DNA of 64,000 nt from a virus: IMG/VR virus record IMGVR_UViG_3300027722_000005, positions 23,741 through 87,740 of that record. The stretch is one strand, 5' to 3'. Within the stretch, counting starts at the first letter, position 1, and every line of letters begins with the position of its first letter. Positions 37,308 through 43,700 of the stretch are shown one piece after another. Under the pieces are notes generated by a model. It had not been told where the DNA came from, did not search any database, and was given only the letters and a program-made list of their open reading frames with translations. The position numbers and the translations under genes are program-made.

Positions 37308-37631
37308 TCAGTTGATGGGGACGCCCCGCTCTGCCGCCAGGGTGCGGACCAGCTCCTCGGCCTCCTTGAACGTAAGGCCCAGCACTTCCGGTTCGCCCTC
37401 GGGCTGCCAGAAGTCGCAAGAGCAGAATTCCTGCATCAAGGCCCCCCCAGACGCATCGGGCCAAAGCTCCTGCCAGAAGTTGTATTCTCCGCCATTGCGG
37501 GCGCGGCTGGGGTCACGGGAAATTCGGGTTTCGATCACGATCTTCTTGTCGCTTAACTCCACGCGGGCATCGAATCCATCTGCCCGCTCGTCCTTGGCCA
37601 CCAGGATAGCATTCTCAATCCGTCTGTACAT
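37308..37631 (-). CDS. Hypothetical protein
   Basis: GAAGGAG RBS; MYRRIENAILV... Confidence 0.65.
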   Translation of the reverse strand: MYRRIENAILVAKDERADGFDARVELSDKKIVIETRISRDPSRARNGGEYNFWQELWPDASGGALMQEFCSCDFWQPEGEPEVLGLTFKEAEELVRTLAAERGVPIN

Positions 37632-37644
37632 CTTCCTTCTCCTT

Positions 37645-37785
37645 CTGCCCGTCCTACCGGGCCGTGTGCCGACTCTCGCCGGCTCGTTTCCGTTCCCAGC
37701 CCTGGCCGCTGGCCGCCGGCTTTGGCCGATATAGCCACCGGTGATCTCGGTCAACGGCCAGGGGTGGGGGCGGAAAGCCCCCTAT
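37645..37785 (-). ncRNA. Intergenic multi-stem structured RNA
   Basis: Long stem CCCTGGCCGTTG/CAGCGGCCAGGG with nested and flanking hairpins. Confidence 0.45.
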
Positions 37786-37792
37786 TCGGTTG

Positions 37793-37990
37793 TTACGCGC
37801 GGATTGCCTCGCGCCCGCCTTCGGCCTTGCGGATCGCGTATCCCGTGATATGGTCGGGGCAGCGGATGACCATGATGCCGTTGAACTGGTCCTCGCCGCT
37901 CTTTGACTTGGCAATCAGCCAGCCGTGCAGGTGCTGTTCGTCGGCCGTCCTGCCACACTTGCCGCACACGTACAGTTGCTTGCTAAACAT
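37793..37990 (-). CDS. Small zinc-finger protein
   Basis: CGKC...CPDH; GAAAGGGG RBS. Confidence 0.65.
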   Translation of the reverse strand: MFSKQLYVCGKCGRTADEQHLHGWLIAKSKSGEDQFNGIMVIRCPDHITGYAIRKAEGGREAIRA

Positions 37991-38055
37991 CGTTCGGTCC
38001 CCTTTCCTGTGTGTACTTGGCCTGGGTAGGCCAGTATCCTCAGCGGATCGTCACA

Positions 38056-38292
38056 CTAGGGGGTCAGTTCTTCGGGCCAGCCGTCCACGTTCTCGGTGTT
38101 CCAGCGGATGTCGGCGGCGCTTTCGCCCTCGTTGAACCAGCCGCGGAATTCGACGCCGGAGTCCTCCTTGGCCTCAATCAGCCGGTCGGGATAGCCGTGG
38201 CTGTCCCGGCGGATGCGGATCACCTTGGCGTATTTCAGCCCGGACTCCTTCTTAATCATCTTGCGGTCCATCTTGCTCAACATGTCGTTCAT
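38056..38292 (-). CDS. Hypothetical protein
   Basis: 78-aa ORF with RBS. Confidence 0.6.
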   Translation of the reverse strand: MNDMLSKMDRKMIKKESGLKYAKVIRIRRDSHGYPDRLIEAKEDSGVEFRGWFNEGESAADIRWNTENVDGWPEELTP

Positions 38293-38304
38293 TTCTCTAA
38301 CCTT

Positions 38305-38380
38305 CCCTGAATTTCGGCTTGCGCCGATTCCTCATTCGGAATTCGTCAGGGCACCCCCACCAAGGTGGGGAGTATTCAGT
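38305..38380 (-). ncRNA. Hammerhead-like structured RNA (non-canonical)
   Basis: CUGAAU/AUUCAG stem III, CUGACGA, GAAA; extra bases and an extra hairpin. Confidence 0.35.
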
Positions 38381-38381
38381 T

Positions 38382-38966
38382 TTAGGCGGGCAGCCAGTCC
38401 CAATCGGCCAGTTCGGCGCACACAGCCTGGTAGTCATCCTCCAGGCTGGACAGCAGGCGCTCGTACTCCTCGCCGTTCACGCCGTCCACGTCGATCTTGT
38501 GGTCGTGCACGTCGCCCATCTCCACTTCGACGGTTGCGCCGGGGTTGGCCTTGACCATGCCGTCCGCGAGGGCCTGGGCGTAGCGGGCCGTCAGGTCAGC
38601 GTTGTCGTGCTCGATGCATTCGTCAACGTCGTACTCGCCCGTTTCGGGGTCCAGGCCGTGGCCCATGTAGCGCGAGCTGGTGCCGTTGCCGGCGATTTCC
38701 TCGTGGATCTCGCGGGCGCGGTCCTTGTAGTCTCCGAACCAGTCGATGATGTCCTGCTTGTTGATCTTGACCGTGATTTCCATTTTCTGATCTCCTTTCG
38801 TGACAGCCTGTCCGCTTTCGTCCGTTGCCGCTTCGGGCCGCACTTCGGCCCCGCACCAGCAGTACACGTGCCAGCGCCCCAGGGAGCGCCGCGCTTCTGC
38901 CGTGTCCCGCACCATGTTGGGTGCCCCGCACTTGGGGCATTGGAATGTGAGGACCGTGATGGTCAT
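38382..38966 (-). CDS. Zinc-ribbon N-terminus plus highly acidic domain (likely second start at 38783)
   Basis: CPKC...CWC; internal GAAAGGAG RBS and ATG at 38783. Confidence 0.65.
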   Translation of the reverse strand: MTITVLTFQCPKCGAPNMVRDTAEARRSLGRWHVYCWCGAEVRPEAATDESGQAVTKGDQKMEITVKINKQDIIDWFGDYKDRAREIHEEIAGNGTSSRYMGHGLDPETGEYDVDECIEHDNADLTARYAQALADGMVKANPGATVEVEMGDVHDHKIDVDGVNGEEYERLLSSLEDDYQAVCAELADWDWLPA

Positions 38967-39010
38967 CGTTCTTGCTCCTTTCGCTCTTGGGCATCCCGCC
39001 CAATGTCTAG

Positions 39011-39039
39011 ATTATATCATACAGTTGGCGGCCCGTCAA
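39011..39039 (-). promoter_or_regulatory. Strong sigma70 promoter
   Basis: TTGACG-17-TATAAT with TG extension. Confidence 0.85.
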
Positions 39040-39085
39040 GTTAAACTTTCGCAACCTAACGGGCCGCCGTGATAGCAGGGCTGGA

Positions 39086-39472
39086 TCAGGCCGTCGCCAT
39101 GACCAGCTCGGTCAGTGCGCTTTCGATGCGCTGGAAGTCGCCCACCTTGCCCCAGTCGATAGGGCCATGCAGCGCCAGGTGTAGCGCCCGGTCATTTACC
39201 CGTTCGTCGAGCACCCGTAGCAAGTGCTGGCTGTTGGTCACGGTGCTGTAGAACGCTGCCCGGGGCTCATAGTTGCAGTTCTGGTAAGCCTCAACGGTCG
39301 GGGCCGATTTCGCCTTGGCGAGTGCATCCCGCGTTTCCGCGATGGCTCCCGTCAAGTCCTCGATGACCACAGCGCCGTCTTTTTCGCTGACGTGCCGCAA
39401 GATGGTCGTCATGGCCGCGTGCATGGCAAAGAGTGCGACTTCTGCCGCGCCAATGAGTTCGGTTTGTTCCAT
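39086..39472 (-). CDS. Hypothetical protein
   Basis: 128-aa ORF; C-terminal IDWGKVGD motif. Confidence 0.65.
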   Translation of the reverse strand: MEQTELIGAAEVALFAMHAAMTTILRHVSEKDGAVVIEDLTGAIAETRDALAKAKSAPTVEAYQNCNYEPRAAFYSTVTNSQHLLRVLDERVNDRALHLALHGPIDWGKVGDFQRIESALTELVMATA

Positions 39473-39643
39473 CGTCCTTGTCCTTTCTGTTTTTTTTTCT
39501 GAAAAAGCTCAGCCCGCCCGTGCCCGTCCTGTTATGGAGACTCAATCTGCTCCACCGCCGCGCCCGCGATGCGCCCAAGAGCTGCCGGGCCTTTCGCCTG
39601 CTTGGTGGCCGTCCGGTGCCGGAGTTGAACCGGCAGGGGGGGG

Positions 39644-39871
39644 TTACGTCGGGTCCGAGATGTACGTCACGTCGCAGCGATAGCAGCGGTACGTGCTCAG
39701 GCGCTGCTCAACGCCGGCCTCGTTGCGGTACGGCTTGGTGAGGGCCGCCGCGAATTGCCCGCAACCGTGGCGGGTCGTGACCGGAGTACCGACAGAAAAG
39801 CCCGCATCTTGGGGGTGCGAGCACTCGGTCACGGTTCGCTGGCCGTTCGGATAGCTGATCATCTTGCCCAT
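39644..39871 (-). CDS. Small Cys-containing protein
   Basis: GAAAGGAG RBS; HGC...CYRC. Confidence 0.6.
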   Translation of the reverse strand: MGKMISYPNGQRTVTECSHPQDAGFSVGTPVTTRHGCGQFAAALTKPYRNEAGVEQRLSTYRCYRCDVTYISDPT

Positions 39872-39975
39872 CGTTCGTTTCTCCTTTCAGTCTCACGGGT
39901 TCCCCCTTGCCCGCGTTCTCAGTGGCCAAGGGGCAGCCCGCGAGGGCTGCGTGAGGTGCGTGCGCACCGTTGCGC

Positions 39976-40398
39976 TTAGTCCCAGCCGGCCGCTTGGTAG
40001 GCCGGGGAGTCGTCAACGATCTGCATGGCGAGCAGTTTGGAAGCCTCGTCCATCAGCTTGTAAAGGTCGGTCTTCGGCACGTTCCCTTCGCTGCACTGAT
40101 ACAGCCAGCAGCGCAGGGACTTGTAGGCCGACACGGGCAGCGGGGCCGGCGTGGGGCAGTAGGTGAAGTTCAGCGGTCGGAACTGTTCGGCAGAGTCGGG
40201 GTAACGGGCGTTAACCGCCTCGACATTCAGGGCAAACATGGCGGATGCCAGCCGTTCGCGGTCCTCGCGCTTGTCCAGGTCATAGCCCGCTTCTGTGATA
40301 CCGCGTGCGGGCCAGTAGAAACGGTCGCCCAGCAGCTTTGTGTAGAAAAAATCCACGATCCGATTGATGGTCTTGTCTTCGACTACATAGGCGCTCAT
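39976..40398 (-). CDS. Hypothetical mobile-element protein
   Basis: MSAYVV...LNVEAVNARY...CWLYQCSEG. Confidence 0.75.
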   Translation of the reverse strand: MSAYVVEDKTINRIVDFFYTKLLGDRFYWPARGITEAGYDLDKREDRERLASAMFALNVEAVNARYPDSAEQFRPLNFTYCPTPAPLPVSAYKSLRCWLYQCSEGNVPKTDLYKLMDEASKLLAMQIVDDSPAYQAAGWD

Positions 40399-40446
40399 CG
40401 TACAATCCTTTCTGCCCGGTACAAAGCCCCGGGCTGGGCGTTTCGT

Positions 40447-40505
40447 CTCTCATTCAGGCCGGCCCGATTTGCCGGCGACTAGGCGACGGTGCGCCTAGTT
40501 TCGAG
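40447..40505 (-). ncRNA. Type II hammerhead ribozyme, core variant CUGAAUGA
   Basis: CUC-GAAA-CUAGGCG/CGCCUAG-UC-GCCGGC/GCCGGC-CUGAAUGA-GAG; GUC triplet. Confidence 0.75.
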
Positions 40506-40508
40506 TGC

Positions 40509-40733
40509 TTAGTAGTCGTATCCGCAATCGGTGCCGAAACGGTCCATGGACTGCTCGGCGCGCAAGTCGTTTGCTCCCTGTCGGCCGCACGTCTCGCAAA
40601 CGGCGGCTTTGGTCTTGGGATAGTAGAAGATACGGTCGCCCTTGCGGATTTGCTTGCCACAAGTGCAAGTGCTGGCAAACCGGGCGGCCAGCCAATACGG
40701 ATCAGCGTTCCCATAGCGGCGGTTGCGATACAT
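40509..40733 (-). CDS. Small zinc-finger protein
   Basis: CTCGKQIRKGD...CETC; GAAAGGAG RBS. Confidence 0.7.
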   Translation of the reverse strand: MYRNRRYGNADPYWLAARFASTCTCGKQIRKGDRIFYYPKTKAAVCETCGRQGANDLRAEQSMDRFGTDCGYDY

Positions 40734-40749
40734 GGTCAAGGCTCCTTTC

Positions 40750-40956
40750 CTAGTACGCCACAACGGCGAGTCGCACGTCAGCGAACGGGCCAACGTGGAA
40801 GAACGCGCCGGCGTGGGTTTCGTTATAGTGCCGATAGTGGTACAGCTTCCCGCCCAGTGGCCAGCGGCCGCTCTTGGTGAGAGAGTACCGTTCCCTGAAC
40901 ACAGTAAATCGCACGGTTACATACCTGCCGCGGATGCGGAAATTCCAATTTTTCAT
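40750..40956 (-). CDS. Small basic hypothetical protein
   Basis: GAAAGGA RBS. Confidence 0.55.
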   Translation of the reverse strand: MKNWNFRIRGRYVTVRFTVFRERYSLTKSGRWPLGGKLYHYRHYNETHAGAFFHVGPFADVRLAVVAY

Positions 40957-40970
40957 CGTTCTTTCCTTTC

Positions 40971-41108
40971 CTAATACTTGGGCGCCGCCAGAAGCAGCGC
41001 CAGCCACAAAACGAGAATCCCCAGCAGCGCCAGCGCAATCACTGGCGCGCCAGTCGAGATAGACGCGAGCGAGGAGACAAAGGCGGGCAGGTCGAGCAAG
41101 AGATCCAT
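40971..41108 (-). CDS. Small membrane peptide (45 aa)
   Basis: GAAGGAG RBS; hydrophobic C-terminal half. Confidence 0.5.
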   Translation of the reverse strand: MDLLLDLPAFVSSLASISTGAPVIALALLGILVLWLALLLAAPKY

Positions 41109-41109
41109 G

Positions 41110-41322
41110 TTAACTCCTTCCCAGCATCCGTTCGGCCTCTTTCGGCCCGAACGTGGTCATATACTCTGTATGGCCGTTAAACGTCTTGCTCTTGGCGGTC
41201 AACGGCACGCCAGAGAAGAGGGTTAGCGTCGCGCTATCCGTGCAATGCGTGTCAATCCCCTTGGCGCGGTAGTGCTCCTGCAACAATCCTTTCAGCTTGC
41301 GCGCGTAGTTGGCTTTTGTCAT
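41110..41322 (-). CDS. Hypothetical protein
   Basis: GGAGGAG RBS. Confidence 0.6.
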   Translation of the reverse strand: MTKANYARKLKGLLQEHYRAKGIDTHCTDSATLTLFSGVPLTAKSKTFNGHTEYMTTFGPKEAERMLGRS

Positions 41323-41325
41323 CGG

Positions 41326-41565
41326 TTAGGCTCCTCCCCACCTGTGATTGCGGGGCAGCGTATCGGGCGCATCGCACGCATCGCGCGAGTTGGGGAAAGT
41401 CGCTGTACGCTGCTCGTACTGCTCCCATCCGGCCGTTTGCGTCGCGCGTTGGTGCCAGATGCGCGCGCACTGCTCGGCGTGTTGCTGTGCAGCGGTGCGT
41501 ACCATGCACTGCCAGTTGTGGCGGGGCGACTTGCGGTCATACACTACAAAGGCCAGTTCTGACAT
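41326..41565 (-). CDS. Hypothetical protein
   Basis: GAGGAG RBS just downstream of the twister. Confidence 0.6.
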   Translation of the reverse strand: MSELAFVVYDRKSPRHNWQCMVRTAAQQHAEQCARIWHQRATQTAGWEQYEQRTATFPNSRDACDAPDTLPRNHRWGGA

Positions 41566-41588
41566 TGTACTCTCCTCTTTCGGCTGAT

Positions 41589-41640
41589 TGTACCCTCTGC
41601 GTCTTCCGCCGGGCTTGGGACCGGCTTGCCGCATTATGCC
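41589..41640 (-). ncRNA. Twister ribozyme (P1 type)
   Basis: UAA-UGCG-GC-AA-GCCGGUCCCAAGCCCGG-...-CGCA-GAGGG; P2, P4 and both pseudoknots present; P1 weak. Confidence 0.85.
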
Positions 41641-41733
41641 CGCGGGCCAGGCGGGCTATTCTGTTTTCGTGAGAATTGGCTTTAACGGTGCTTCATGGTA
41701 TTAATCCTTTCGTTAGCAAGAGTTTGTGGGGTG

Positions 41734-42084
41734 CTACTTAATGAGTGAGTGCGTTACCTCGCTTCCGTTCCAGCGATGCACCGTGATCGGGGTGCCGCTA
41801 TCCAGAAAACCGCGCAGAAGGTCTTTCGTGCAAGCGTGGTATCCAATGCCCTCGCAAGAGGACAAGCAACCGCCGGTCTTGGTTTCGGTGCTCCAGGTGC
41901 CGTTGACTGCGATGTGAATCATCGTTGCATCTTGCCCGTAGCGCAAGCCCTTTGTGTACTGCTCGCTGGCCAGATCACGGACAACGTTCGGGGTGTACCC
42001 GTCAAACGGGGTGTCAAACTGCTCCCATGCCAGGTAGGTTTCGGGGGACAATGCGCGCAATTCAGCATAACCGCTGTATCCCAT
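41734..42084 (-). CDS. Hypothetical protein
   Basis: AAGGAG RBS; 116 aa. Confidence 0.65.
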   Translation of the reverse strand: MGYSGYAELRALSPETYLAWEQFDTPFDGYTPNVVRDLASEQYTKGLRYGQDATMIHIAVNGTWSTETKTGGCLSSCEGIGYHACTKDLLRGFLDSGTPITVHRWNGSEVTHSLIK

Positions 42085-42108
42085 CGTTCGCTCCTTTTTT
42101 TCAGAATT

Positions 42109-42210
42109 TTTGCTTGTGTACTCCTGCCCGCCGATAATGGAGTCGAACCATTAATCGACGCCCAACCCGGGCAGCGGGCAGCAGCGCACAAGCAAGTGTG
42201 AGCTGCTGTA
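42109..42210 (-). ncRNA. T-loop three-way-junction RNA
   Basis: UUGCUUGUG/CACAAGCAA, CUGCCCGC/GCGGGCAG, T-arm AAUGG-UUCGACU-CCAUU. Confidence 0.5.
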
Positions 42211-42213
42211 GTT

Positions 42214-42489
42214 CTAGCGCACCGCAACGCGCGCATAATCGTGATACTCAGCGTGGTGATTGTCCAACCGGCTCGGCTGCTCGCCCGTGCCCCGTGCCCA
42301 CTGTGCCCAGCGGTTTGCATCCTCTTGGATCTTGTAAGCATACTCGCACGCATCGGTAAGACTCGTGAATCGGGCGATTGTCTTACCCTCAGTGCTTGTC
42401 TTGGGCGTCTCGTGCGGCTCGGCGTAGAAAACCACAACGTCAAACCACTTCTTTTTGCTGCTCAGTCCGATATAGTTGCTGAATTCCAT
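42214..42489 (-). CDS. Hypothetical protein (first gene of the leftward cluster)
   Basis: GAAAGGA RBS; 91 aa. Confidence 0.65.
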   Translation of the reverse strand: MEFSNYIGLSSKKKWFDVVVFYAEPHETPKTSTEGKTIARFTSLTDACEYAYKIQEDANRWAQWARGTGEQPSRLDNHHAEYHDYARVAVR

Positions 42490-42521
42490 TGTCGGTATCC
42501 TTTCGTTTCAGTTTTTTTCAG

Positions 42522-42577
42522 AAAAAAAACCGCCGTGCCGGGCTTGCACCGGGCAGCAGGCTTAATCCTCGGCGGTT
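42522..42577 (-). ncRNA. Three-way junction with UGCAAGC loop followed by a U tract (attenuator-like)
   Basis: AACCGCCG/CGGCGGUU closing stem; CGG-UGCAAGC-CCG hairpin. Confidence 0.45.
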
Positions 42578-42856
42578 ACAGTATTCTATTGTACCCATGC
42601 CATGGGCTTTTTTGAATGAAGTTGTCCTGGTTAACCCAGTCGCCTTAATTCGCTTGAATCCCATTAACCTGGCGCTCAAACCAAACTGGCAAACGTTCGG
42701 CGGCCAATGCGGCGCTTTGCGGATTCGCTTTTCGGGCTGTATTGAACCGCTTTCTCGCTTGCACTTGCTCTATGGCCTGGACTGTTGCCGTGGCTTACCT
42801 TTGGCCTTGCTACTCTTGGCGGTTCTGTTGTTAGGGTTCCTTTGTTCTATGGCTGG

Positions 42857-42922
42857 ATTGTATCACATAGCCCAACAGACATCCTGACATCTAGCTGACA
42901 GCAATCTGACAGTAACCTGACA
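42857..42922 (-). promoter_or_regulatory. Extended -10 promoter with four TGTCAG repeats at 11-bp period
   Basis: CTGACA at 42884, 42895, 42906, 42917 on plus; minus TGnTACAAT at 42865-42857. Confidence 0.7.
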
Positions 42923-43700
42923 CGCTATGATAATCATCATAACAATACATGACTAGGGATGAGTGACCTACCCCATCATAGATAGATACTCAGCCTACAG
43001 ACGCAGGTGCTACTACTACTATTGCGTTCTAGGAACCGGCCAGGATGGGCATTATTCAGGTGCGTGAGTAGTAGTAGTAGCGGAGTCGAGCCACCGTCGA
43101 TACGGGAACCGGGGAGCCGATAGATCAGGGGAGCTGGCACCGTCGATACCTCGATAACCTGGGGCTGTTGCAGCCATTGCCAGTCTGGCCAGCGCAAGCA
43201 CACAAGCATAACAGTCTAAGGTATCGAGCATGGCGACAAGCTGACATAACTACAGTACATGGGTGAGTAGGGTGGGGGGGGATGTATGTAGTATGATTAT
43301 GTGTAGTGGGGAGATGGGGAGTAGGGACAATGGGGAGTAGGGGAGTAGGGTATCATCTGTCGCCCCTCAACACGCGGCCCATCATGCCCGAACAGGTGTG
43401 CTACATACTACCATGCTCGTGCTCACTCTGCTGCTACGTGTCATAGATGGGTCTAATCATAATTAAACACACCTATCATGTAGTATATATGTGTAGAATC
43501 ATAGCGAACTACAATGAATAATATCATGCTATCATGCTACTCTGCTCTATCGATGCGAGCCCATGGATCGTGCCACTGGCCAGCGCATCGCGCAGCGTCG
43601 AGCCGGCAGAACCGGAGAAATTTCTAGGCCGGGCCTGGGGAGTGGGCGGCACTCCCCCAGGTTTTCCATACGCGGTGAAAGTGTATTCTTATGTCAAACG
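42923..43700. other. Low-complexity non-coding tract, possible genome terminus or packaging region
   Basis: Lower GC, TAC/GTA runs, G-tracts, inverted repeat near 43634-43661; transcription diverges from it. Confidence 0.5.

What the first reader, a model, noticed from the sequence alone, without database searches (positions are those of the whole stretch)
41589..41640. Twister ribozyme with almost no P1 stem directly ahead of an RBS
Seen: the minus strand reads GGCA-UAA-UGCG-GC-AA-GCCGGUCCCAAGCCCGG-CGGAAGA-CGCA-GAGGG-UAC. P2 (UGCG/CGCA), P4 (CCGG/CCGG), the CCC/GGG and GC/GC pseudoknots and the U-A cleavage step (41636/41635) fit the twister consensus. The GCCGGUCCCAAGCCCGG block matches the rice twister as I recall it. 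P1 has only about 2 possible pairs and its 5' side is tied up in an upstream GCCCGC/GCGGGC hairpin. Established: engineered twisters tolerate P1 truncation. Inference: a natural mini-twister that sets the 5' end about 70 nt before the 41565 start codon.
Basis: partly seen in the sequence, partly recalled or inferred. Interest (0 to 1): 0.78.

Follow-up and report, generated by a model that had tools for sequence, protein, structure and literature searches.

The report
Phage twister ribozyme with vestigial P1
This is a genuine-looking twister self-cleaving RNA sitting between two small genes of a phage; its unusual features (a hairpin just before the cut site and an almost missing outer stem) turn out to be common among phage twisters, so it is a new member of a known family, not a new kind of ribozyme.

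Summary
Rfam's type-P1 twister model matches 41589-41640 (-) exactly: 38.6 bits, E=7e-5 for the whole window. This is below the gathering score of 67.2. However, 0 of 19 type-P1 hits in related phage or metagenome loci reach that score either. UAA, P2, P4/L4 and both pseudoknot partners are intact. P1 is 1-2 pairs.

The upstream GCCCGC/GCGGGC hairpin is the published optional P0 stem (PMC6154101, PMC11662667). A metagenome contig, L053, carries the same ~150-nt cassette at 94% identity between different genes. Its three differences inside P0 plus twister are all at unpaired positions, and its P1 is weaker still.

Among 32 dereplicated type-P1-topology phage/metagenome twisters lacking P3, 26 have a P0-like hairpin and 11 have a P1 of 2 pairs or fewer. 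P1 is known to be dispensable (PMC5408937).

Most likely the element cuts the operon mRNA at 41636/41635. That would leave a hairpin-ended upstream fragment and a 5'-OH, twister-capped 70-nt leader for the 41565 gene. Cleavage was not tested.

Verdict: new member of a known kind, modest interest.

The parts
41577..41725 (-). Conserved intergenic cassette. It runs from just after the stop codon of the upstream gene to the Shine-Dalgarno region, and contains the mini-ORF, P0 and the twister.
   Evidence: 94% identity over 150 nt with metagenome contig L053 (1739-1887), while the flanking genes differ.
41682..41696 (-). Four-codon mini-ORF (ATG AAG CAC CGT TAA) behind an AAAGGA RBS-like motif, ending 25 nt before P0.
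   Evidence: Read. L053 has the same ATG and stop, but codons 2-3 differ at 4 of 6 bases. Function unknown; it may be what remains of a deleted gene.
41638..41656 (-). P0 hairpin: GCCCGC / GCGGGC, 6 pairs with a 7-nt loop. It ends 1 nt before the U of the cleavage step.
   Evidence: present in both the MFE and the centroid fold of 141 nt. The stem is conserved in L053 and the only change is in the loop. It matches the published description of P0/L0 (PMC11662667 section 33).
41637..41640 (-). 5' side of P1 as aligned by the Rfam model (GGCA). Only A41637 is free of P0.
   Evidence: alignment: 2 of 4 pairs are non-standard.
41635..41636 (-). Predicted cleavage step U41636 | A41635 (the UAA of loop L1).
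   Evidence: Position in the Rfam alignment. The cleavage chemistry is inferred from the family, not tested.
41628..41633 (-). P2 5' strand UGCG (41633-41630) and the T2 partner GC (41629-41628).
   Evidence: alignment. Complementary to 41601-41598 and to 41614-41613.
41609..41624 (-). P4 hairpin with loop L4 (CCGG UCCCAAGC CCGG). CCC 41619-41617 is the T1 partner and GC 41614-41613 is the T2 partner.
   Evidence: 16 of 16 positions equal the Rfam consensus line. Identical in L053.
41602..41608 (-). Purine-rich linker CGGAAGA between P4 and the P2 3' strand. No P5 stem.
   Evidence: One substitution in L053. The same linker occurs in L027 and L035.
41593..41601 (-). P2 3' strand CGCA followed by GAGGG (T1 partner GGG 41595-41593).
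   Evidence: It is the only exact occurrence of this 9-mer in the 87.7-kb genome.
41589..41592 (-). 3' side of the vestigial P1 (UACA). U41592 pairs with A41637.
   Evidence: C41590 is deleted in L053, so this strand is not constrained.
41563..41577 (-). Shine-Dalgarno region (GAGGAGAG) and the ATG (41565-41563) of the downstream gene.
   Evidence: The longer ORF from the ATG at 41634 is closed by a stop codon in L053 (read), so 41565 is the likely start.
41326..41565 (-). Downstream gene, 79 aa, function unknown.
   Evidence: No PHROG hit; one Pfam hit below cut-off. No homologue other than itself in the search.
41734..42084 (-). Upstream gene, 116 aa, function unknown.
   Evidence: No PHROG or Pfam family. 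8 homologues at 46-56% identity by BLASTP.

Best explanation
The element is a type-P1 twister self-cleaving ribozyme without P3 or P5. It is preceded by the known optional P0 hairpin and has a P1 reduced to one or two pairs. It lies in a 168-nt gap between two small genes of a leftward operon in an 87.7-kb phage.

Inferred mechanism: as the operon is transcribed, P0 forms first, then P4, and then P2 with the two pseudoknots. The RNA then cuts itself between U41636 and A41635. The upstream mRNA would end in the P0 hairpin plus two nucleotides carrying a 2',3'-cyclic phosphate. The downstream mRNA would begin with a 5'-hydroxyl buried in the still-folded twister body, followed 16 nt later by the Shine-Dalgarno region (41577) of the 79-aa gene. 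Cleavage would therefore uncouple the two messages and give each a structured, protected end, working like a built-in insulator.

Shown here: the sequence and structure match, the conservation, and the layout. Inferred only: cleavage in vivo and any effect on RNA stability or translation.
For: Family match:
- The RF03160 alignment covers the full model at E=7e-5 for the window.
- All upper-case consensus positions of L1, P2, T2, P4/L4 and GAGGG are present; the exception is listed in the Against line.
- The core descriptor matches in 0 of 100 shuffles.

Conservation:
- L053 has the same cassette at 94% identity between unrelated genes.
- Its 3 differences within P0 plus twister lie in the P0 loop, the P4-P2 linker and the P1 3' tail. 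None falls in a stem or pseudoknot.

Fold: the MFE and centroid folds of 141 nt contain P0, P2 and P4.

Score: a score below the gathering threshold is the rule for this sub-type. 0 of 19 RF03160 hits in 20 related loci reach 67.2 bits; they range from 35.7 to 58.5.

Layout is typical:
- 26 of 32 dereplicated type-P1-topology clusters have a hairpin of 4 or more pairs ending 6 nt or less before UAA.
- 11 of 32 have a P1 of 2 contiguous pairs or fewer.
- 23 of 25 type-P1 cores in the first sample are followed by an SD-like motif and a start codon (crude regular expression).

Literature (passages read):
- P1 is dispensable (PMC5408937 section 12).
- Natural twisters are 'essentially impervious' to P1 imperfections (PMC11662667 section 32).
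- The pseudoknots persist in the 3' fragment and its 5' end is buried (PMC8782182 section 5).
- Processing of polycistronic transcripts has been suggested for bacterial twisters (PMC6765202 section 13).
Against: - There is no experimental or read-level evidence of cleavage.
- The window (38.6 bits) and L053 (35.7 bits) are the two lowest-scoring type-P1 hits seen.
- In the high-throughput assay, twisters with P0/L0 cleaved less on average: 0.40 against 0.85 (PMC11662667 section 33).
- A 72-nt fold places GCCC of P0 against GGGU. That pairing would block pseudoknot T1.
- Fold energies are no better than those of shuffles: z=0.52 and 0.16.
- The consensus UAAA of the P4-P2 linker is only partly matched here (CGGAAGA).
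- Conservation rests on a single relative at 94% identity, which has little power.
Confidence: 0.7

Rival explanations
1. P0 stands in for P1. The hairpin stacks under the active site where P1 normally sits. The RNA would then be topologically a twister opened between the GAGGG strand and P1, and the hairpin would be an orphaned closed P1 inherited from a type-P5 ancestor after the 9-nt CGCAGAGGG strand was duplicated downstream.
For: - The 28-nt stretch from UAA to the end of P4 is identical in the type-P5 twisters L010 and L052, where a closed P1 hairpin abuts UAA.
- In the window, P0 ends 1 nt before UAA.
- Of 11 clusters with a P1 of 2 pairs or fewer, 7 have the hairpin 1 nt or less from UAA.
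- 15 of 31 cores with type-P5 topology carry a second copy of the P2 3' strand within 17 nt after L4. The next five 17-nt bins hold 1, 3, 2, 5 and 7. One of the 15, L034, is misclassified.
- L047 is a mirror image of the window: its upstream strand is intact and its downstream copy is decayed.
Against: - There is no relic of an upstream strand 5' of P0. The best match in the window is 5 of 9, and 36% of shuffles match as well. None of the 35 regions tested is significant.
- P0 also occurs with an ordinary P1 of 3-7 pairs in 21 of 32 clusters, so it need not be a displaced P1.
- These sequences are too short for a phylogeny.
- Stacking cannot be tested with these tools.
Confidence: 0.25
2. The element is a decayed, inactive twister relic. 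It is kept only as a structured spacer, or for its P0 hairpin (for example as a 3'-end or antisense-terminator hairpin).
For: - It has the lowest model scores of the set.
- P1 is lost.
- P0-bearing twisters cleave poorly on average (PMC11662667 section 33).
- A competing fold exists.
- On the + strand the P0 hairpin followed by a T-rich tail scores as terminator-like. The number of such sites, 3, is not above the shuffle mean of 2.3.
Against: - Every catalytic-core and pseudoknot position is intact, and all are identical in L053, while the mini-ORF, the tail and the flanking genes have diverged.
- P1 loss alone does not inactivate twisters (PMC5408937, PMC11662667).
Confidence: 0.15
3. The element is a conditional ribozyme. 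Cleavage would be gated by whether P0 or a competing pairing forms, for example through ribosomes on the 4-codon mini-ORF or through an unknown factor.
For: - A mini-ORF with an RBS-like motif is kept in both relatives.
- An alternative fold involves the 5' arm of P0 and the T1 strand.
Against: - The stop codon of the mini-ORF lies 25 nt before P0, probably too far for a terminating ribosome to open the hairpin.
- No covariation or other comparative support exists, because only two sequences are available.
- The other P0 twisters in the sample have an ordinary gene end upstream, not a mini-ORF.
Confidence: 0.07
4. The match to the twister consensus is due to chance in GC-rich DNA.
For: The score is below the Rfam gathering threshold. 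The same model also gave sub-threshold matches in 2 of 14 control genomes.
Against: - E=7e-5 for the whole window.
- 0 of 100 shuffles match the core descriptor.
- The same cassette is conserved in L053.
Confidence: 0.01

Closest known systems
Type-P1 twister ribozymes (Rfam RF03160) with the optional P0/L0 stem-loop
   Same: Same order of elements: P0, P1, UAA, P2, GC, P4/L4, linker, P2', GAGGG, P1'. Same conserved nucleotides and pseudoknot partners. P0 sits immediately upstream of the 5' end, as published (PMC11662667 section 33; PMC6154101 section 2.1).
   Different: There is no P3, although P3 is reported in 78% of annotated twisters (PMC6154101). P1 is reduced to 1-2 pairs. The score is below the family's gathering threshold.
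Engineered 'mini-twister' lacking P1 (Kosutic et al. 2015, as described in PMC5408937 section 12)
   Same: A twister core that works without a P1 helix and releases a very short 5' product.
   Different: The mini-twister is a truncated two-strand laboratory construct. Here the 5' side continues into a stable hairpin and a long mRNA, and activity is untested.
Type-P5 twisters (Rfam RF02684) of GC-rich phages and metagenome-assembled genomes, such as L010, L052, L047 and L048
   Same: The core is identical or nearly identical from UAA to P4. A hairpin abuts the cleavage site and an RBS follows within about 10-40 nt.
   Different: In those RNAs the CGCAGAGGG strand lies upstream of the hairpin, so the hairpin is a closed P1. 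In the window that strand lies downstream.
RiboJ-type synthetic ribozyme insulators (PMC6206723, title and listing only; details are recalled)
   Same: A self-cleaving ribozyme placed just before an RBS, so that the translated mRNA has a defined, structured 5' end independent of what lies upstream.
   Different: RiboJ is an engineered hammerhead plus a hairpin. Here the arrangement is natural and based on a twister, and its effect on expression is untested.
PeSL mobile regulatory cassettes of T4-type phages (PMC2839356 and PMC4122927, titles and abstract openings only)
   Same: A conserved short intergenic stem-loop cassette shared between phages, flanked by unrelated small genes.
   Different: PeSLs are promoter-terminator motifs, not ribozymes. 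The evidence that twister cassettes sit at mosaic junctions is only a handful of pairs.

Membership tests
Twister ribozyme (Rfam clan CL00120) | Internal loop L1 with the cleavage step N-A (UAA) next to P2 | tested here: met
   U41636-A41635-A41634 aligns to the consensus UAA.
Twister ribozyme (Rfam clan CL00120) | P2 helix | tested here: met
   UGCG/CGCA, 4 Watson-Crick pairs. Present in the MFE fold.
Twister ribozyme (Rfam clan CL00120) | P4 hairpin with the conserved L4 loop | tested here: met
   16 of 16 positions equal the consensus line.
Twister ribozyme (Rfam clan CL00120) | Pseudoknot T1 (L4 CCC with GGG of GAGGG) and pseudoknot T2 (GC after P2 with GC of L4) | tested here: met
   The complementary partners are present at 41619-41617/41595-41593 and 41629-41628/41614-41613. 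Only complementarity was checked. Covariation could not be tested, because my search patterns fixed these bases.
Twister ribozyme (Rfam clan CL00120) | P1 helix closing the motif (phylogenetically conserved but dispensable for catalysis) | tested here: not met
   2 of 4 model pairs are non-standard, and only 1 contiguous pair remains once P0 forms. L053 deletes C41590. The literature says P1 is not required (PMC5408937, PMC11662667).
Twister ribozyme (Rfam clan CL00120) | Score at or above the Rfam gathering threshold for RF03160 (67.2 bits) | tested here: not met
   38.6 bits. However, 0 of 19 RF03160 hits in related loci reach it, so the threshold is not informative for this sub-type.
Twister ribozyme (Rfam clan CL00120) | Site-specific self-cleavage giving 2',3'-cyclic phosphate and 5'-OH ends | not testable with these tools
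   No sequencing run could be listed. This needs a bench assay.
Twister P0/L0 auxiliary stem-loop | [quoted passage not shown] | tested here: met
   A 6-pair hairpin ends 1 nt before U41636. The definition comes from PMC11662667 section 33.
Twister-sister ribozyme (RF02681), considered for the hairpin at 42538-42552 | P1-L1-P2 catalytic loop plus a junction with P4/SL4 and P5 | tested here: not met
   Only the 15-nt SL4 hairpin matches (14.2 bits, E=8). There is no room for P5 or for the L1 3' strand (architecture from PMC5660989).

The most novel reading that the evidence does not exclude
In phage twisters the helix under the active site need not be made by pairing the two ends. A cis hairpin (P0) can supply it, giving in effect a further permutation, opened between the GAGGG strand and P1. 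This form and the type-P5 form would interconvert by duplicating the 9-nt P2'/T1 strand on either side of the core. Both forms would converge on one function: after cleavage, the upstream mRNA ends in a hairpin and the downstream mRNA starts with a P2-P4 stem-loop just before its RBS. These would be natural ribozyme insulator cassettes that also travel between phages as mosaic-junction modules.
Probability: 0.25. Interest if true: 0.55.

Novelty: new member of a known kind. Interest (0 to 1): 0.3.

Why it matters
There are three modest points.

1. Annotation. The Rfam gathering score for twister-P1 misses this element and all 19 type-P1 hits that I scored in related loci. Phage genomes are therefore probably under-annotated for this ribozyme.

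2. P1 in nature. If the element is active, it is a natural case, conserved in two mosaic relatives, of a twister working with essentially no P1. That would extend to living systems what was shown with truncated constructs and library assays.

3. A testable model. Phage twisters in this sample recur in the layout stop codon, P0 hairpin, short P1, twister, RBS. Type-P5 relatives often carry a second downstream copy of the P2 strand. Together these give a concrete model for what bacterial and phage twisters are for. That question is still described as open in the 2019 review PMC6765202.

Tried and rejected
- Default Rfam scan of the window: only a tRNA. The twister appears only with E-value thresholds.
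- blastn of 40500-42600 against GenBank phages: no match.
- Exact-peptide search for the 116-aa upstream protein in viral contigs: none.
- Two cassette-specific DNA patterns in viral contigs: none.
- Homologue search for the 79-aa downstream protein: only itself.
- Six viral contigs encoding homologues of the upstream gene: 0 of 6 have any twister hit within 2.5 kb at E<=1. The twister is therefore not linked to that gene.
- Sequencing runs: none was listed and no RNA holder was listed.
- Other ribozymes in the same operon: permissive Rfam scans of 37600-41100 and 42050-42960 gave no hammerhead, pistol, hatchet or HDV-like hit at E<=10. They gave only a 15-nt local twister-sister hit.
- A decayed upstream copy of CGCAGAGGG 5' of P0: not found. 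The window matches 5 of 9, and 36% of shuffles do as well.
- A P1 formed across P0 with bases further upstream: I looked by eye and found nothing convincing.
- Thermodynamic z-scores are uninformative.
- The original twister papers (PMC3867598, PMC4509812) are not held. What I say about them comes from reviews that cite them. Supplements of PMC11662667, which may list P0-bearing twisters with a weak P1 and their cleavage fractions, were not opened.
- A recount gives 19, and the report uses 19.

Bias of the samples. All comparative sets were pulled with patterns that fix the L4 loop, so covariation there cannot be assessed. Searches also fix P4, and searches also fix the 5' strand of P2. 52 of 139 cores could not be assigned a topology and were left out of the counts. 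One P1-topology core with less than 55 nt of upstream sequence was dropped (51 of 52 used). Some rows (L090, L097, L067) may not be true twisters. One family of 16 near-identical sequences was collapsed.

Full report
WHAT IS THERE

The window is part of an 87,740-bp virus record with direct terminal repeats. On the minus strand, a run of small genes of unknown function is read leftward. No PHROG or Pfam family was found for the two flanking genes; one Pfam hit below cut-off was seen for the downstream gene, and weak PHROG hits for three other genes of the run.

A 168-nt gap separates a 116-aa gene (42084-41734) from a 79-aa gene (41565-41326). Read 5' to 3' on the minus strand, the gap contains:
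- an RBS-like AAAGGA and a 4-codon mini-ORF (41696-41682);
- a 6-pair hairpin GCCCGC/GCGGGC (41656-41638);
- one A (41637);
- UAA (41636-41634), then UGCG, GC and AAG;
- the hairpin CCGG-UCCCAAGC-CCGG;
- CGGAAGA, then CGCA, GAGGG and UACA (ending at 41589);
- 11 further nt, a GAGGAGAG Shine-Dalgarno region, and the ATG at 41565.

IS IT A TWISTER?

Rfam's default scan reports only a tRNA. With E-value thresholds, the type-P1 twister model RF03160 aligns over its whole length to exactly 41589-41640 (-). The score is 38.6 bits, with E=3.8e-7 on 351 nt and 7e-5 on the whole window. It is the only non-tRNA hit at E<=1.

All strongly conserved consensus positions of L1, P2, T2, P4/L4 and GAGGG are present; the UAAA of the P4-P2 linker is only partly matched (CGGAAGA). 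The optional P3 is replaced by 3 nt, and there is no P5. A 44-position descriptor of the core with up to 3 mismatches occurs once in the window and in 0 of 100 shuffles. It is the only twister in the phage genome.

The score is below the gathering value of 67.2, but this is not informative for the sub-type. In 20 related loci the same model gave 19 hits of 35.7-58.5 bits, none reaching 67.2. Over the same loci, 6 of 7 type-P5 hits passed their own threshold of 37.6.

P1 AND THE UPSTREAM HAIRPIN

The model marks 2 of the 4 P1 pairs as non-standard. G41639, the partner in one of the two remaining pairs, belongs to the hairpin. So P1 is really the single pair A41637-U41592, stacked on the hairpin.

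The hairpin is not new. Reviews list P0 among the optional twister stems, present in 21% of annotated twisters (PMC6154101 section 2.1, citing Roth et al. 2014, which I could not open). [quoted passage not shown] That study also reports that imperfections, length and stability of P1 do not affect cleavage (section 32, passages). It further reports that P0-bearing twisters cleave less on average, 0.40 against 0.85. P1 deletion leaves near wild-type rates in the engineered mini-twister (PMC5408937 section 12, passages).

RELATIVES

No close relative was found in GenBank phages or IMG/VR. A pattern scan of metagenomes found contig L053, 2,003 nt. It shares four pieces with the window:
- the leader upstream of the first gene (91.5% over 248 nt);
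- two short pieces of the next intergenic region;
- 150 nt covering the twister cassette at 94% identity.

The genes between these pieces are different. The cassette homology starts right after the upstream stop codon and ends at the Shine-Dalgarno region. Inside P0 plus twister there are three differences: the P0 loop, the P4-P2 linker, and deletion of C41590 in the P1 3' tail. No stem or pseudoknot position is touched, and P1 in L053 is weaker still. In L053 the ORF that starts at the ATG inside the twister is closed by a stop codon, so the region is non-coding.

This fits selection on the ribozyme and none on P1. It is only one comparison at high identity.

HOW UNUSUAL IS THE LAYOUT?

I collected twister cores lacking P3 from viral, genome and metagenome contigs. 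This gave 139 distinct cores: 52 with the P2'/GAGGG strand downstream (type-P1 topology), 32 with it upstream (type-P5 topology), 3 with both, and 52 unassigned.

For the 51 type-P1-topology cores with enough upstream sequence, the longest contiguous P1 is distributed as follows:

| P1 pairs | 0 | 1 | 2 | 3 | 4 | 5 | 6 | 7 |
|---|---|---|---|---|---|---|---|---|
| cores | 3 | 9 | 14 | 9 | 8 | 6 | 1 | 1 |

After collapsing near-identical sequences into 32 clusters:
- 11 clusters have a median P1 of 2 pairs or fewer;
- 26 have a hairpin of 4 or more pairs ending 6 nt or less before UAA;
- in 16 of the 21 clusters with a P1 of 3 or more, by my reading of the table, the hairpin-to-UAA distance is within 2 nt of the P1 length, so P0 abuts P1.

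In the first, smaller sample, 23 of 25 type-P1 cores are followed by an SD-like motif and a start codon 11-79 nt after GAGGG; the window's distance is 27.

So the layout 'P0, very short P1, twister, RBS' is the norm for these phage twisters, and the window sits at the short-P1 end of a continuum. The samples are biased by the search patterns, and a few rows may be false.

MECHANISM

The nested helices P0, P2 and P4 appear in the MFE and centroid folds of 141 nt. A 72-nt fold shows a competing GCCC:GGGU pairing that would block T1. Neither fold is more stable than shuffles.

The most likely working is co-transcriptional folding followed by cleavage at 41636/41635. The upstream product would end in P0 plus AU with a cyclic phosphate. 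The downstream product would start with a 5'-OH inside the folded twister body. The pseudoknots persist in the 3' fragment and its 5' end is buried (PMC8782182 section 5, passages).

Processing of polycistronic transcripts into RNAs of different stability or translation has been suggested for bacterial twisters and hammerheads, but not established (PMC6765202 section 13, passages). All functional steps here are inferred. No sequencing run could be listed.

A BOLDER READING

The stretch from UAA to P4 is identical in type-P5 twisters such as L010 and L052, where a closed P1 hairpin abuts UAA. Of 31 cores with type-P5 topology, 15 (one misclassified) carry the reverse complement of P2 again within 17 nt after L4. 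The next five bins hold 1, 3, 2, 5 and 7. The second copy often runs into the RBS. L047 is a mirror image of the window.

This suggests that the two topologies interconvert by duplication of the 9-nt strand, that P0 may be an orphaned P1, and that both designs leave a 5' stem-loop on the downstream mRNA.

Against this reading, no relic of an upstream strand is detectable 5' of P0 in the window or elsewhere. P0 also coexists with a normal P1 in most clusters. I give it about 0.25.

VERDICT

The element is a new, sub-threshold member of the twister family with a known auxiliary hairpin and a vestigial P1. It is typical of phage twisters, not exceptional. Interest is modest (0.3).

Noticed in passing
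window 42523-42580 (-), hairpin loop at 42538-42552: A terminator-like long hairpin (AACCGCCG...CGGCGGUU followed by 8 U) lies just after a promoter-like TTCAAA-N17-TACAAT (42616-42588). Its top is a 15 of 15 match to positions 32-46 (the SL4 hairpin) of the Rfam twister-sister model, but only at 14.2 bits, E=8. Its order of elements (UAA, 4 nt, GC, 2 nt, CCGG-loop-CCGG, CA, then a partial complement) parallels a twister that has lost T1. It is conserved in L053 and was seen nowhere else in 165 loci. It may be a decayed twister turned into a terminator.
   Followed up: partly
window 42085-42213 (-): Structured intergenic element. L053 keeps its two ends (42207-42174 at 100%, 42131-42092 at 92.5%), including the stem CUGCCCGC/GCGGGCAG, but holds a different insert between them. 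Rfam gives only weak microRNA-like long-hairpin hits.
   Followed up: partly
loci L010, L016, L020, L023, L029, L039, L043, L045, L047, L048, L096, L103, L109, L136: Type-P5 twisters often carry a second copy of the P2 3' strand right after P4, frequently running into the Shine-Dalgarno sequence. The count is 15 of 31 within 17 nt, against 1-7 of 31 in the control bins; one of the 15 (L034) is misclassified and is not listed in the locus field. This could mean refolding after cleavage, competition before it, or a trace of permutation by duplication.
   Followed up: partly
pairs window/L053, L038/L044, L020/L048, L128/L130; also L149 against its family: Homology between related contigs breaks within 10-67 nt after the twister loop, or 14-15 nt before UAA, although more sequence is available. 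So twister cassettes sometimes sit at mosaic junctions. There are 4 plus 24 such pairs against 172 collinear pairs, and most of the 24 involve one contig. No null model was made.
   Followed up: partly
window 41682-41696 (-): Four-codon mini-ORF with an RBS-like motif, AACGAAAGGA. The same motif precedes three real gene starts in the genome (42507, 35781 and 43697). The ATG and stop are kept in L053, but codons 2-3 differ at 4 of 6 bases.
   Followed up: partly
window 41587-41597 and 41564-41574 (-): An 11-nt direct repeat with one mismatch (GAGgGUACAAU / GAGaGUACAAU) links the 3' end of the twister and the RBS/start of the next gene. It is absent from L053. It may be chance.
   Followed up: no
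loci L008, L014, L023, L026, L037, L024, L050: Related contigs carry several ribozyme hits within 1-3 kb: L014 has three twisters; L008, L023 and L026 have two each; L037 has a type-P1 and a type-P5. L024 also has a sub-threshold hammerhead III hit (33 bits), and L050 an HDV-like hit (32 bits).
   Followed up: no
window 37600-41100: Earlier notes of this scan describe a type II hammerhead at 40447-40505 and a hammerhead-like element near 38305-38380. A permissive Rfam scan (E<=10) of this stretch returned no ribozyme family at all.
   Followed up: partly
window 41638-41656 (+): Read on the plus strand, the P0 hairpin followed by TATTCTGTTT scores as terminator-like. The number of such sites in the region (3) is not above the shuffle mean (2.3).
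   Followed up: no
loci L016-L020: Twisters with the same core occur on contigs of metagenome-assembled genomes labelled Chthonomonadales, Gemmatimonadaceae, Longimicrobiales and Eubacteriales. This hints at the host range of this GC-rich twister group.
   Followed up: no
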